In this document: positions 5,373-7,375 of the stretch, piece after piece
How the letters are laid out: each line of letters begins with the position of its first letter
How positions within the stretch are numbered: the stretch's first letter is position 1
Virus genome (UHGV): UHGV-0229837
DNA: 11,317 nucleotides
Origin: a virus
Strand: one strand, 5' to 3'
Notes under the pieces: generated by a model
Told to the model about the DNA's origin: nothing
Seen by the model: the letters and a program-made list of their open reading frames with translations, nothing else
The model's database searches: none
Made by a program: the position numbers and the translations under genes

Positions 5373-5509
5373 TATTCATTCTTCCAGATTCCTTCCGGCA
5401 GAGCCTTATACTGGAATATACCTGGCTCAGGATATTGTTGAAAATATTATATGTTTGTCAAAAATAAAAGTTCTGTTAAGTATTGATTGAGTGTTTGTTA
5501 TACGGTCTA

Positions 5510-5836
5510 ATGGTTTTTTCAGTATTAAATATTTATCATTCATATGGTGTGGGTAGAGTGAATATTGATGAGGCGTCGGGGTGTTTCATCCTTAGGCAGC
5601 GTATTGATATAGTCAATGCAGCACGAGCAAAGGCCTTCAGCCGTTTGACAGTTTTGTTCTGTACTCCTGATCGTCTTTCGGGAAGAGACGTTATTCTTCT
5701 GAATAGTGATGCTATACAGAGGGTTTGCGATGAGTTCATGGTTGCTAATTCAGAATTATTTGCTCTTGTTCAGGAGTACAACAGAATAGCCAGGACCTGT
5801 GGTATGGATGAACTTCGGATTACTCATCTGGGGTAG
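5510..5836 (+). CDS. Hypothetical cargo (moron) protein (108 aa from ATG 5510; the track gives 117 aa from TTG 5483)
   Basis: Single long ORF in the first part of the cargo island; weak SD; no motif I recognise. Start codon uncertain. Confidence 0.4.
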   Translation: MVFSVLNIYHSYGVGRVNIDEASGCFILRQRIDIVNAARAKAFSRLTVLFCTPDRLSGRDVILLNSDAIQRVCDEFMVANSELFALVQEYNRIARTCGMDELRITHLG

Positions 5837-6227
5837 ATACATATCTGGATTATCACCTGTTACGGTAAAAAGTGATTGCTTACTGTTTTTGTGAATGGCA
5901 TTGCAGCAGCCGGATAATGTCAGTGCTGGCTGACGGTGTGCTGGTGGCGGGTGTGGTGGTTGTTGCTTTCCCGTTGCTGAAAAAGAAAACGCCAGACTGT
6001 TAGCCGGGTATCAGTTAGCGGGAGAAATTTTTAAATACTTCACAATTCAGGCGGTTGACTGTTGTCTGGTTTGCGGGGAGTTTGTTAAAAGAAACTGGCA
6101 TGGTGAATCCCCCTGTGCGGAGGGGCAATCAGCGAGTAGGTATATGGGATAATCGCGGATTCAGGTGCTGGTACTGAATTCACCGGGAGGCACCCGGCAC
6201 CATGCAATGGCACATAGCGCCACTCTC

Positions 6228-6263
6228 CAGCCCCTCTCCGGAGGGGCTGTTTATATTGATTTT
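6228..6263 (+). terminator. Strong intrinsic terminator (perfect 9-bp stem CAGCCCCTC / GAGGGGCTG, loop TCCG, then TTTATATTGATTTT)
   Basis: Read directly from sequence; the U-run is on the + strand, so it terminates rightward transcripts; only about 20 nt from the 3' end of the convergent minus-strand gene. Confidence 0.55.
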
Positions 6264-6283
6264 GTCAGATGTGAGTAAACTCC

Positions 6284-6619
6284 TTATGGACTTTGTTGTT
6301 TTAGTCCATAAGGACATATTTGCAGAGTGCAACGGTTATTAAAGCATTCATTCAATACGTTATCTGTATTTGTAGGGCATTCCTGGCTGTTTTTGATTAA
6401 ATTCCAGAATGTTTTATTGAATGGTACTACGTTGTAAATGGTTACAGGTAGCACTTTGTTATTGAGCATGATACCTGTGTGAGTCAGTGTAAATATACTT
6501 TCAGGAGGTAAGAAAGCATCCGATTGATACCAGATTATTAATTTTACTTTACTCCATATGACTGAAAAAGATATTCCGCATGATGGCTGGATAACTGTAT
6601 CAATCACAATCCACTTCAT
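6284..6619 (-). CDS. Hypothetical AT-rich antisense cargo (moron) protein (111 aa)
   Basis: ATG at 6619 preceded on the minus strand by AAGGAAG at 6-nt spacing and a sigma70-like promoter; a 111-codon ORF is unexpected by chance in DNA this AT-rich. No family recognised. Confidence 0.5.
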
Positions 6620-6659
6620 TTAGCTTCCTTGTTTATGCCTTGCTGGTGATGTTCTGAAA

Positions 6660-6686
6660 AGTATAAATGATATTTTTGAATGTAAA
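6660..6686 (-). promoter_or_regulatory. Putative promoter of the antisense cargo gene (-35 TTTACA, 15-bp spacer, -10 TATACT on the minus strand)
   Basis: Reverse complement of 6660-6686; the hexamers are near consensus but the spacer is short at 15 bp. Confidence 0.35.
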
Positions 6687-6879
6687 CCATAGCGCAGAAT
6701 TATTTTTCTGATGTTGTTTATTGTTTATTTAAATGCAGGGTGGTTTATATCTCGTCTTGTAGTTTATCCATGCATATCTGCTTGATAATCAGGTTTTTAT
6801 TTAAGGTATGGTTTTGTGTTTTTTCTGTATTACATATCCGGTATTTTAAAGAATTATTTTTCAGATAGTGGAAAGAACC

Positions 6880-7068
6880 ATGGCATTTAAACACTATGAT
6901 GTTGTCAGGGCGGCGCCGCCGTCAGATCTTGCGGAAAAGCTGACACATAAACTGAAAGAGGGCGGGCAGCCGTTTGGTAGTCCGGTGGCCATAACCCCTT
7001 ATACCCTGATGCAGGCGATTGCAGCAGAAGGTGATGTGGTGGTCAGTGGTGCAACTGAGCCGGAGTGA
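6880..7068 (+). CDS. Small hydrophilic protein (62 aa from ATG 6880), possibly DUF1737-like
   Basis: Track ORF 6868-7068 from GTG; the ATG at 6880 has a GGAAAG SD-like element upstream. Small proteins of this type commonly sit upstream of holin genes in lambdoid prophages; family assignment is from memory and unverified. Confidence 0.45.
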   Translation: MAFKHYDVVRAAPPSDLAEKLTHKLKEGGQPFGSPVAITPYTLMQAIAAEGDVVVSGATEPE

Positions 7069-7312
7069 TACTACGTCATCGTACTGGCCCGGCATTCCAG
7101 GCCATAAAAGACAGTCTGGCAGTGGGACTAAATGCACTGACGCTGATGGATATTACCAAAAATGTAACGTATGGCGTTGAGATAGAAAGTCTGGCGCTGG
7201 AGATAAATGCACCGGCATCATCATAAAAAGTGAGCCAGTCAAATGGAAGGTATCGTTAAACTCACCGGTAGTGTCAGTGGGTCGTCTGAGACGCTTGCAT
7301 GAGTTATCAGAG

Positions 7313-7343
7313 CCATCAGTAGTTAACTGGTGGCTTTTTTATT
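7313..7343 (+). terminator. Intrinsic terminator-like hairpin immediately upstream of the holin gene
   Basis: Stem CCATCAGT / ACTGGTGG (8 bp with one G-U pair), loop AGTTA, followed by CTTTTTTATT; lies inside the spurious N-terminal extension of track ORF 7271-7591. Confidence 0.5.
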
Positions 7344-7375
7344 GTTTTCAGCTTCCGGATAACGGGAGACGGGGT

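What the first reader, a model, noticed from the sequence alone, without database searches (positions are those of the whole stretch)
5373..7375. AT-rich cargo island of uncharacterised genes between the phage tRNAs and the holin, the slot where Stx phages carry toxin genes
About 2 kb between the argN-like tRNA and the pinholin holds no recognisable phage function. It contains a + strand ORF (5510-5836), a roughly 390-nt hairpin-rich untranslated stretch ending in a strong terminator, an antisense gene with its own promoter and SD (6284-6619), a small + strand ORF (6880-7068) and a terminator just before the holin. Base composition is far more AT-rich than the flanking Q and lysis genes. In Stx phages this exact position holds stx; in K-12 Qin it holds cspB/cspF. 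This is the most likely place in the window for an undescribed accessory function such as anti-phage defence, a toxin or a host-modulating factor.
Basis: partly seen in the sequence, partly recalled or inferred. Interest (0 to 1): 0.7.

Follow-up and report, generated by a model that had tools for sequence, protein, structure and literature searches.

The report
Known prophage cargo island carrying iraL
The 2-kb stretch between the phage tRNAs and the holin is a real accessory-gene island, but it is an already described one: its main gene is iraL, a studied protein that protects the stress sigma factor RpoS from degradation. It sits beside a known small-RNA family, a broken sialic-acid esterase gene and two small genes of unknown function.

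Summary

- **iraL (6284-6619, minus strand).** It is 110/111 aa identical to the CFT073 protein shown experimentally to bind RssB and stabilise RpoS in log phase. The mapped promoter and transcription start are intact.
- **The "hairpin-rich untranslated stretch".** It holds a DUF3927 small ORF (5872-6003) and an sRNA of the STnc100/PasD family (6069-6258; Rfam 132 bits against a cutoff of 47), which ends in the terminator.
- **ORF 6880-7068.** This is the DUF1737 stump of a nanS-p sialate esterase gene that lost about 1.49 kb. ORF 7065-7226 is the 3' end of the same gene.
- **ORF 5510-5836.** This is a real but uncharacterised gene (phrog_2873, dN/dS 0.26). No RefSeq record examined annotates it, although the DNA occurs in 1185 complete genomes.

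The same island sits in the CFT073 potB prophage and in EPEC prophage PP5. A Stx2a phage carries stx2AB between the tRNAs and STnc100-iraM-nanS-p, so the slot analogy holds. No ORF matches a PADLOC defence model or any toxin family. Only iraL, its upstream region and the spacer after the tRNA are AT-rich.

Verdict: a known lysogenic-conversion island of low novelty. The residual interest lies in ORF1 and in the function of the sRNA.

The parts
5192..5295 (+). Degenerate remnant of the middle tRNA (argN position), between the tRNA with anticodon CAU (5116-5191) and tRNA-Arg(UCU) (5296-5372). Left boundary context of the island.
   Evidence: ARAGORN and Rfam find only two tRNAs. Alignment with the CFT073 and Stx2a-phage three-tRNA cluster shows a scrambled anticodon arm and a 7-nt insertion.
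5510..5836 (+). ORF1: a small protein of family phrog_2873, function unknown. The conserved core starts at N18, so the probable true start is GTG at 5558, giving 92 aa. It is not annotated in any RefSeq record examined.
   Evidence: - PHROGs E=1.8e-69 over the full length.
- dN/dS 0.26 and differences of 24/23/43 by codon position against a 58%-identical subfamily.
- 20 representatives among 1.84 billion proteins.
- AF2 model is a two-helix hairpin, pLDDT 73.5.
- Present in 1185/5426 E. coli genomes. Nine of the ten rows listed show no annotated feature and the tenth, a partial match, a hypothetical protein. The annotated regions of four genomes also leave it uncalled.
5872..6003 (+). DUF3927 small hydrophobic protein (43 aa, GTG start; called 'TciB-like' in PHROGs). 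This is a shortened variant that lacks 12 residues of the 52-aa form.
   Evidence: Pfam PF13064 95.6 bits against a cutoff of 25. phrog_1470. RefSeq WP_000562553.1. Alignment with the EPEC PP2/PP4 copies.
6069..6258 (+). STnc100-family sRNA gene (related to PasD1/PasD2). The probable RNA 5' end is at 6098. It ends in the terminator.
   Evidence: - Rfam RF02076 132.4 bits against a gathering score of 47, E=1.2e-29.
- The PasD 5' end GCATGGTGAATCC equals window 6098-6110.
- MFE -69.5 kcal/mol, z=-2.98.
- Same position in EPEC PP5 and directly after stx2B in a Stx2a phage.
6228..6249 (+). Intrinsic terminator hairpin of the sRNA (9 pairs, 7 of them G-C, followed by TTTATATT). It lies 35 nt from the iraL stop codon, which converges on it.
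   Evidence: and the Rfam alignment.
6085..6213 (-). Short ORF antisense to the sRNA. RefSeq calls it a partial 'hypothetical protein' pseudogene. It is probably an annotation artefact.
   Evidence: RefSeq pseudo-CDS. No family hit in Pfam, NCBIfam, PHROGs or PADLOC. It lies wholly inside the Rfam sRNA match.
6284..6619 (-). iraL: an RssB anti-adaptor of the IraM/IraL/RssC family (111 aa).
   Evidence: - 110/111 aa identical to CFT073 IraL (V24I).
- NCBIfam NF007393 161.4 bits against a cutoff of 121.
- 62% identity to K-12 IraM; matches PDB 8twd at E=8e-32.
- Function shown experimentally for the CFT073 protein (PMC4045071).
6652..6686 (-). iraL promoter: transcription start at 6652, -10 TATACT at 6660-6665, -35 TTTACA at 6681-6686.
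   Evidence: The published 5'RACE sequence ACATCACCAGCAAGGCATAAACAAGG is found exactly on the minus strand. Both promoter hexamers are identical to CFT073.
6880..7068 (+). 5' stump of the nanS-p (SASA-family 9-O-acetyl sialate esterase) gene. Only the DUF1737 domain remains.
   Evidence: - Pfam DUF1737, 52.6 bits.
- phrog_143 positions 1-58 of 634.
- Window 5077-7099 is 96.4% identical to EPEC PP5, as far as nt 220 of the intact esterase gene.
- RefSeq marks it as a pseudogene.
7065..7226 (+). 3' end of the same nanS-p gene, in a different reading frame. About 1.49 kb, including the SASA catalytic domain, is deleted between the two fragments (junction at about 7084-7099).
   Evidence: phrog_143 positions 582-632 of 634. 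Window 7084-7229 is 90.4% identical to L005 3692-3837. Frame offset of 2.
7309..7337 (+). Terminator-like hairpin followed by a T-run, upstream of the holin.
   Evidence: Window 7306-7592 is homologous to the region upstream of the holin in EPEC PP4.
7376..7591 (+). Class II (P21-type) holin. Right boundary of the island.
   Evidence: Pfam PF04971 112.5 bits. RefSeq WP_000372595.1.

Best explanation
The region is a mosaic lysogenic-conversion ("moron") segment in the late operon of a Qin/CFT073-potB-type lambdoid prophage, between Q/tRNAs and the lysis cassette.

**iraL, the functional core.** It lies on the opposite strand and is transcribed in the lysogen from its own sigma-70 promoter, independently of Q. 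By near-identity to the studied protein, IraL binds the N-terminal domain of the adaptor RssB and blocks delivery of RpoS to ClpXP. RpoS therefore accumulates during exponential growth and the general stress response is raised.

**The sRNA.** An STnc100/PasD-family sRNA converges on iraL. It has a structured body and an intrinsic terminator. It presumably acts as an Hfq-dependent base-pairing RNA on host and prophage mRNAs.

**The + strand genes.** ORF1 (phrog_2873) and a shortened DUF3927 membrane peptide lie in the late-transcript orientation, in the place where Stx phages carry stx. Their function is unknown.

**nanS-p.** The sialate esterase gene that normally follows has been destroyed by a 1.49-kb frameshifting deletion.

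**Shown here:** the identities, synteny, promoter conservation and the deletion. **Inferred:** the activity of IraL in this strain, expression and targets of the sRNA, and expression of ORF1 and DUF3927.
For: **iraL**
- 110/111 aa identity to CFT073 IraL.
- NCBIfam IraM subfamily hit above its cutoff.
- The published 5'RACE start sequence and the -10/-35 hexamers are conserved.
- The paper shows that IraL raises RpoS level and half-life, binds the RssB N-terminal domain, and raises log-phase RpoS levels in K-12 when supplied with its native promoter.
- iraL plus its promoter is present in 1446 of 5426 complete E. coli genomes at 90% identity or more.

**Synteny**
- The same island is in the CFT073 potB prophage and in EPEC PP5 with an intact esterase.
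- A Stx2a phage has tRNAs-stx2AB-STnc100-iraM-like-nanS-p-holin.

**sRNA**
- STnc100 Rfam hit at 132 bits and a stable fold, z=-2.98.
- The related PasD sRNAs were validated by Northern blot, with Hfq-dependent stability.

**nanS-p remnant:**

**ORF1 is coding:**. A 37%-identical relative lies between tRNAs and a TerB-like gene, holin and endolysin.
Against: - No expression or protein data exist for this particular strain.
- One residue differs from the studied IraL (V24I), and there are three base changes in and around the 5' UTR.
- Some genomes carry iraL with an internal stop, so the gene is not universally maintained.
- STnc100 has no experimentally established target or function. Its terminator U-tract is short (UUUAUAUU), which is atypical for strong Hfq binders.
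- The DUF3927 copy lacks 12 residues and may be inactive.
- ORF1 has no informative homologue or fold match.
Confidence: 0.88

Rival explanations
1. The island encodes an undescribed anti-phage defence system, toxin or other new accessory function, carried by ORF1 and/or the DUF3927 gene.
For: - ORF1 is a conserved coding gene (dN/dS 0.26) with no known function. The family is tiny and it is unannotated in the RefSeq records examined.
- It sits where Stx phages carry stx.
- PHROGs labels DUF3927 relatives 'TciB-like inhibition of cell division or resistance to colicin'.
Against: - No ORF of the island hits a PADLOC model, and none hits a toxin family in Pfam, NCBIfam or PHROGs.
- ORF1 is a 92-108 aa helical hairpin with no enzymatic or membrane features.
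- Most of the island is accounted for by known elements: iraL, STnc100 and the nanS-p remnant.
- A literature search for TciB/DUF3927 found nothing relevant.
Confidence: 0.07
2. The gene is IraM, as RefSeq names it: a PhoPQ-controlled anti-adaptor induced by Mg2+ starvation, as in K-12.
For: RefSeq product name 'anti-adapter protein IraM'. NCBIfam NF007393 match. The N-terminal 78 residues align well with the solved K-12 IraM chain 8twd.
Against: - Only 62% identity to K-12 IraM, against 99% to IraL.
- The upstream regulatory region does not align with that of K-12 iraM.
- The literature separates the two into non-overlapping groups, each at least 95% identical internally. They differ in inducing conditions and in how they bind RssB.
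Confidence: 0.04
3. The island is simply decaying prophage DNA with no current benefit to phage or host.
For: - nanS-p is destroyed by a 1.49-kb deletion.
- The argN tRNA is degenerate.
- DUF3927 is shortened.
- iraL carries an internal stop in some strains.
- In the window, tail-fibre fragments follow the lysis genes directly, so the prophage looks defective.
Against: - The iraL ORF and promoter are intact and 95-100% conserved in about 1400 genomes.
- A deletion phenotype is shown in CFT073 and Shigella sonnei.
- ORF1 is under purifying selection.
- The STnc100 structure scores far above the family threshold.
Confidence: 0.08

Closest known systems
iraL of uropathogenic E. coli CFT073 (formerly ycgW; Hryckowian et al. 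2014, mBio, PMC4045071)
   Same: - 110/111 aa identical.
- Same promoter hexamers and transcription start sequence.
- Same surrounding island: tRNAs, DUF3927, STnc100, iraL, deleted nanS-p, class II holin.
- Same prophage type.
   Different: - V24I substitution.
- Three base changes in and around the 5' UTR.
- CFT073 has an IS200 insertion after Q and three intact tRNAs. The window has no IS and a degenerate middle tRNA.
IraM of E. coli K-12 (b1160, next to e14; PDB 8twd)
   Same: Same protein family (NF007393). The N-terminal half and the C-terminal cysteines are conserved. Both are RssB anti-adaptors.
   Different: - 62% identity.
- Unrelated upstream region.
- According to the literature, K-12 IraM binds both RssB domains, whereas IraL binds only the N-terminal domain and acts in log phase.
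- K-12 iraM is PhoP-dependent and induced by low Mg2+ (from my own knowledge).
Prophage PP5 of EPEC E2348/69
   Same: 96.4% DNA identity over window 5077-7099. It has the same order: tRNA-Ile, tRNA-Arg, ORF1, DUF3927, STnc100, iraL, start of nanS-p.
   Different: PP5 keeps the full 616-aa esterase, followed by the antisense sRNA PasC and then two IS elements before the holin. The window lacks about 1.49 kb of the esterase gene and has no PasC or PasA.
Stx2a-converting phage late region (e.g. Stx2_EH1910)
   Same: Same slot and order: Q, tRNAs, then STnc100, an antisense iraM-like gene, nanS-p, holin.
   Different: The Stx phage has stx2AB where the window has ORF1 and DUF3927. Its IraM-like protein is 72% identical. 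Its nanS-p is intact.
STnc100 (Rfam RF02076) and the PasD1/PasD2 sRNAs of EPEC
   Same: - Full-length covariance-model match.
- Same position directly after DUF3927 and before the esterase gene.
- The first 13 nt are identical to the PasD 5' end.
   Different: Beyond the 5' end the sequence is not BLAST-alignable with PasD. According to the preprint, the seed regions and targets described so far differ, and STnc100 itself has no validated function.
K-12 Qin cryptic prophage
   Same: Same backbone: hokD, DUF968, Q, class II holin, ydfR, lysozyme, Rz, csp gene, tail-fibre remnants.
   Different: Qin has cspF, cspB and small ORFs in the Q-to-holin slot. It has no tRNAs, iraL, STnc100 or nanS-p there.

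Membership tests
IraM/IraL/RssC RssB anti-adaptor family | Sequence match to the curated family model above its cutoff | tested here: met
   NCBIfam NF007393: 161.4 bits against a cutoff of 121, residues 1-110.
IraL (as defined by Hryckowian et al. 2014) | At least 95% identity to CFT073 iraL over the whole coding region, distinct from iraM | tested here: met
   99% aa identity to CFT073 C_RS06710 and 62% to K-12 IraM.
IraL (as defined by Hryckowian et al. 2014) | Conserved sigma-70 promoter and mapped transcription start upstream of the gene | tested here: met
   The 5'RACE sequence is found at 6627-6652 on the minus strand. The -10 and -35 hexamers are identical to CFT073.
IraL (as defined by Hryckowian et al. 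2014) | Binds the RssB N-terminal domain and stabilises RpoS in log phase | not testable with these tools
   Shown for the CFT073 protein. Inferred here from the single V24I difference.
K-12-type IraM (PhoPQ-regulated) | Orthology to b1160, including its regulatory region | tested here: not met
   62% aa identity. The upstream 270 nt does not align with K-12.
STnc100 sRNA (Rfam RF02076) | Covariance-model score above the gathering threshold over the full model | tested here: met
   132.4 bits against 47, model positions 1-206.
STnc100 sRNA (Rfam RF02076) | Expressed as a discrete, Hfq-associated small RNA | not testable with these tools
   STnc_100 was detected by RT-qPCR in STEC vesicles, and PasD relatives by Northern blot and RIL-seq, all in other strains.
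PasD1/PasD2 sRNAs | Sequence similarity to the EPEC PasD transcripts | tested here: inconclusive
   Only the first 13 nt match. The relationship rests on the structural homology reported in the preprint and on the shared position after DUF3927.
PasA/PasC sRNAs (antisense, between esterase and holin) | Sequence match in the esterase-holin spacer | tested here: not met
   No meaningful BLAST match in the spacer. Homology to PP5 ends at window 7229, at the PasC 3' end.
NanS-p prophage 9-O-acetyl sialate esterase | N-terminal DUF1737 domain | tested here: met
   PF08410, 52.6 bits.
NanS-p prophage 9-O-acetyl sialate esterase | SASA-type catalytic esterase domain in one reading frame | tested here: not met
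   Only phrog_143 positions 1-58 and 582-632 of 634 remain, in different frames. About 1.49 kb is missing relative to EPEC PP5.
DUF3927 (PF13064) | Pfam match above the gathering score | tested here: met
   95.6 bits against 25, but 12 residues shorter than the 52-aa form.
Shiga-toxin cassette of Stx phages | stxA/stxB genes between the tRNAs and the lysis genes | tested here: not met
   No toxin family matched any ORF of the island. The synteny with a Stx2a phage is otherwise shared.
Known anti-phage defence systems (PADLOC-DB v2) | Any protein matching a defence-system model | tested here: not met
   No hits for the six ORFs at E <= 0.01.

The most novel reading that the evidence does not exclude
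ORF1 (5510/5558-5836, phrog_2873) could be a functional, so far unstudied late-region accessory protein. It is conserved, under purifying selection, left uncalled in the RefSeq records examined although its DNA occurs in about 1,200 complete E. coli genomes, and held in the tRNA-to-holin slot even in 37%-identical relatives. It might modulate the host or the timing of lysis. It may work together with the adjacent DUF3927 peptide and the STnc100 sRNA as a unit that alternates with stx.

A weaker variant of the same idea: the convergent STnc100-iraL pair, which shares one terminator hairpin, could form a regulatory module. Read-through of iraL would then be antisense to the sRNA.
Probability: 0.15. 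Interest if true: 0.45.

Novelty: already known. Interest (0 to 1): 0.15.

Why it matters
The island shows how a prophage rewires a central host regulator. Through iraL it raises RpoS in growing cells, and this has been linked to stress tolerance of uropathogenic E. coli and Shigella. That is published, so finding it here adds a further instance and not a discovery.

Three practical points follow:
1. RefSeq labels the gene "IraM", which hides the functional distinction from the Mg2+-responsive K-12 protein.
2. A conserved coding gene (ORF1) is missing from the RefSeq annotation in the records examined, although its DNA is present in more than a thousand complete E. coli genomes.
3. RefSeq annotates a pseudo-CDS that lies antisense within a known sRNA.

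The comparison also makes clear that stx sits upstream of a conserved STnc100-iraM/L-nanS-p block, and does not replace the whole slot.

Tried and rejected
**Defence or toxin reading.** PADLOC gave no hits for any of the six ORFs, and Pfam, NCBIfam and PHROGs gave no toxin or defence family.

**Function of ORF1**
- Foldseek of the AF2 model against PDB and BFVD gave only generic alpha-hairpin matches, none with E <= 0.001.
- A profile search of 1.84 billion representatives found only 20 family members and no annotated relative.
- A genome-contig scan with P0028 and a viral-contig scan with P0031 found nothing.
- Alignment A5 was too divergent to seed a locus search.

**PasA/PasC or AgvB/AsxR between the esterase remnant and the holin.** No match by BLAST or Rfam.

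**Literature on TciB/DUF3927.** The search returned only irrelevant papers.

**PhoP-type regulation as in K-12 iraM.** The upstream regions do not align, so I did not pursue a PhoP-box search.

**Consensus promoter scan.** It missed the experimentally mapped iraL promoter, whose spacer is 15 nt. Its other hits are at chance level, so I did not use them as evidence.
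Full report
**Context.** The window is a Qin-like lambdoid prophage of E. coli. In order it carries:
- hokD/sok;
- a DUF968 gene, rusA and a Q antiterminator (4151-4972);
- a tRNA with anticodon CAU (5116-5191) and tRNA-Arg(UCU) (5296-5372);
- a class II holin (7376-7591), ydfR, lysozyme and Rz;
- a cold-shock gene and tail-fibre fragments.

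The finding covers 5373-7375, which is exactly the stretch between the last tRNA and the holin start.

- The ORFs at 5510-5836 (+), 6284-6619 (-) and 6868/6880-7068 (+) exist.
- A 9-pair G+C-rich hairpin followed by a T-run lies at 6228-6249, and a 12-pair hairpin with a T-run at 7309-7337. Terminator-like sites are enriched: 7 against 2.2 +/- 1.5 in shuffles.
- The composition claim is only partly right. The island is 42.1% GC against 46.4% for the window. The low values are confined to iraL (34.5%), the 260 nt upstream of it (30.0%) and the 137-nt spacer after the tRNA (32.8%). The DUF3927 ORF, the sRNA and the esterase remnant are 51-55% GC.

**Is it unique?** No. The 2003 bases occur at 100% identity in many E. 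coli chromosomes, and 859 of 5426 complete genomes hold at least 80% of them. Parts of the island occur at up to 16 places per genome, which shows a modular, recombining cassette.

RefSeq annotates the following in it:
- a DUF3927 protein;
- a partial "hypothetical" pseudogene;
- "anti-adapter protein IraM";
- a DUF1737 pseudogene;
- a small hypothetical protein.

**The antisense gene is iraL.**
- The protein matches the NCBIfam IraM subfamily above its cutoff (161 bits against 121) and the solved K-12 IraM chain 8twd.
- The literature separates two sequence groups: iraM (K-12) and iraL (CFT073, "potB island"). They are 59% identical, and IraL was characterised experimentally. Deleting iraL lowers log-phase RpoS in CFT073 and S. 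sonnei and halves the RpoS half-life in CFT073. The cloned gene with its native promoter raises RpoS in K-12. [quoted passage not shown]
- I fetched the CFT073 prophage next to potC/potD. It has the same island, and its IraM-annotated protein differs from the window protein by one residue, V24I. Identity to K-12 IraM is 62%, and to the copy in a Stx2a phage 72%.
- The published 5'RACE sequence ACATCACCAGCAAGGCATAAACAAGG is present on the minus strand. This puts the transcription start at 6652, with TATACT at -10 and TTTACA at -35, both identical to CFT073. The region upstream of K-12 iraM does not align at all.
- iraL plus its promoter is found in 1446 of 5426 complete genomes at 90% identity or more.

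**The "hairpin-rich untranslated stretch" has two occupants.**
- *DUF3927 ORF, 5872-6003.* Pfam gives 95.6 bits and PHROGs labels it "TciB-like". This copy lacks 12 residues of the 52-aa form seen in EPEC prophages PP2 and PP4.
- *STnc100 sRNA, 6069-6258.* It matches Rfam RF02076 over the whole model (132.4 bits against a gathering score of 47). It folds into a closed multi-branch structure plus terminator (-69.5 kcal/mol, z=-2.98).

A 2026 preprint (Zhu, Shabalina and Storz) relates STnc100 to the EPEC sRNAs PasD1 and PasD2, which were validated by Northern blot and RIL-seq. The PasD 5' end, GCATGGTGAATCC, equals window 6098-6110, which suggests a transcript of about 160 nt.

STnc100 occupies the same place in EPEC PP5. 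In a Stx2a phage its Rfam match begins 75 nt after stx2B, as an independent paper also reports. Its function is not established. The RefSeq pseudo-CDS at 6088-6213 (-) lies inside this sRNA and matches no family, so it is most simply an annotation artefact.

**The small + ORF is a gene stump.**
- ORF 6868-7068 matches positions 1-58 of the 634-residue phrog_143, and ORF 7065-7226 matches positions 582-632.
- Against EPEC PP5, window 5077-7099 aligns at 96.4% as far as nt 220 of an intact 616-aa SASA-family esterase gene. Window 7084-7229 aligns with that gene's last 146 nt.
- About 1.49 kb, including the catalytic domain, is therefore deleted, and the two ends are out of frame. Phage records annotate the intact gene as yjhS/nanS, a 9-O-acetyl-N-acetylneuraminate deacetylase.
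- In EPEC the antisense sRNAs PasA and PasC lie between the esterase and the holin. The window has neither, and homology stops exactly at the PasC 3' end.

**ORF1 (5510-5836) is the one truly uncharacterised gene.**
- It matches phrog_2873 over its full length (E=1.8e-69).
- The DNA is in 1185 complete genomes. Nine of the ten rows listed show no annotated feature, and the tenth, a partial match, shows a hypothetical protein. The annotated regions of strain 20, YZLc1-3, CFT073 and EPEC PP5 also leave it uncalled.
- A second subfamily, 57-61% identical, keeps the frame open.
- Over 91 codons dN/dS is 0.26, and differences by codon position are 24/23/43. The ORF is therefore coding.
- Conservation begins at N18 and distant members start there, so GTG at 5558 (92 aa) is the likelier start.
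- The family is very small: 20 representatives among 1.84 billion proteins.
- The AF2 model (pLDDT 73.5) is a two-helix hairpin with short terminal strands. It has no significant match in PDB or BFVD.
- A 37%-identical member lies between tRNAs and a TerB-like gene, holin and endolysin. The family therefore keeps to this slot.

**The slot.**
- Stx2a phage Stx2_EH1910 has Q, a methylase, three tRNAs, stx2A, stx2B, STnc100, an antisense iraM-like gene, nanS-p and the holin.
- K-12 Qin has ynfS, cspF, cspB and ynfU between Q and essQ.

The toxin genes occupy only the tRNA-proximal part of the slot, where ORF1 and DUF3927 are here. They lie upstream of a conserved STnc100-iraM/L-nanS-p block.

**Mechanism.**
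- In the lysogen, iraL is transcribed leftward from its own promoter, whatever the state of Q. By near-identity to the CFT073 protein, IraL sequesters RssB, so ClpXP degrades less RpoS during growth.
- The sRNA is probably transcribed rightward from about 6098 and terminates at 6228-6249, 35 nt from the iraL stop codon.
- ORF1 and DUF3927 are in the late-operon orientation. They would at least be expressed after Q-mediated antitermination, which also reads through the hairpins at 6228 and 7309.
- nanS-p is dead.

The identities, the synteny and the deletion are shown here. The activities in this strain are inferred.

**Rivals.**
- *A new defence or toxin function.* This is left only to ORF1 or DUF3927 and has no positive evidence.
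- *A PhoPQ-type IraM.* Sequence and promoter argue against it.
- *Pure decay.* This fits nanS-p, the degenerate argN position and the shortened DUF3927. It does not fit the conserved iraL, ORF1 and sRNA.

**Verdict.** This is a genuine cargo island, correctly spotted, but already known in its main parts. Novelty is low. The residual interest lies in the unannotated ORF1 and the still unknown role of STnc100.

Noticed in passing
window 5510-5836 (and the same DNA in 1185 complete E. coli genomes): A conserved coding gene under purifying selection (phrog_2873). Nine of the ten RefSeq records listed in a spread sample show no annotated feature at this place. This looks like a systematic annotation gap.
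   Followed up: yes
window 6085-6213 (-): RefSeq annotates a partial 'hypothetical protein' pseudogene that lies entirely antisense within the STnc100 sRNA match. It is probably an annotation artefact, propagated from a hypothetical protein that overlaps PasD1 in EPEC PP4.
   Followed up: partly
EPEC E2348/69 NC_011601.1 1288353-1288689 (-), which is L005 1354-1690; homologous to window about 6253-6589: Published RIL-seq supplementary data list Hfq-bound chimeras between the iraL mRNA (E2348C_1245) and the core sRNA Spot 42 (11 chimeras, p=2e-5). This hints at post-transcriptional control of iraL by catabolite signalling.
   Followed up: no
window 5192-5295: The middle tRNA of the phage three-tRNA cluster (argN position) is degenerate. 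Its anticodon arm is scrambled and it has a 7-nt insertion relative to CFT073 and a Stx2a phage. ARAGORN and Rfam detect no tRNA there.
   Followed up: yes
window 11079-11277 (+): A full-length match to Rfam IS009 (212 bits against a gathering score of 117) lies inside the tail-fibre-assembly ORF 10736-11317.
   Followed up: no
window 9528-9912 (+): A cspA-type thermoregulator 5' UTR (Rfam RF01766, 114 bits) leads into a 70-aa cold-shock protein whose best NCBIfam match is CspG, just below that model's cutoff. It lies downstream of the lysis genes, like cspI in K-12 Qin.
   Followed up: no
window 1656-1979 (+): A hok/sok type I toxin-antitoxin locus: sok RNA (Rfam 101 bits) followed by a 51-aa ORF that RefSeq annotates as hokD in a 100%-identical record.
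   Followed up: no
window 4151-4972 (+): The Q antiterminator carries a DnaJ-type CXXCXGXG zinc-finger region (Pfam PF00684, below its cutoff). This may be why neighbours of STnc100 in Salmonella Fels-1 are annotated as a 'prophage chaperone'.
   Followed up: no
L002 2412-2747 (strain YZLc1-3): In this genome, whose island is 99.9% identical, iraL is annotated as a pseudogene with an internal stop. The gene can be lost without loss of the island.
   Followed up: no
L007 1344-1556 and 4650-4839: One E. coli contig carries two STnc100 copies in a single late region, flanking a TolA-like gene, an AraC-type regulator, an IS3-type insertion and the ORF1 homologue. This illustrates duplication and recombination of the module.
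   Followed up: no
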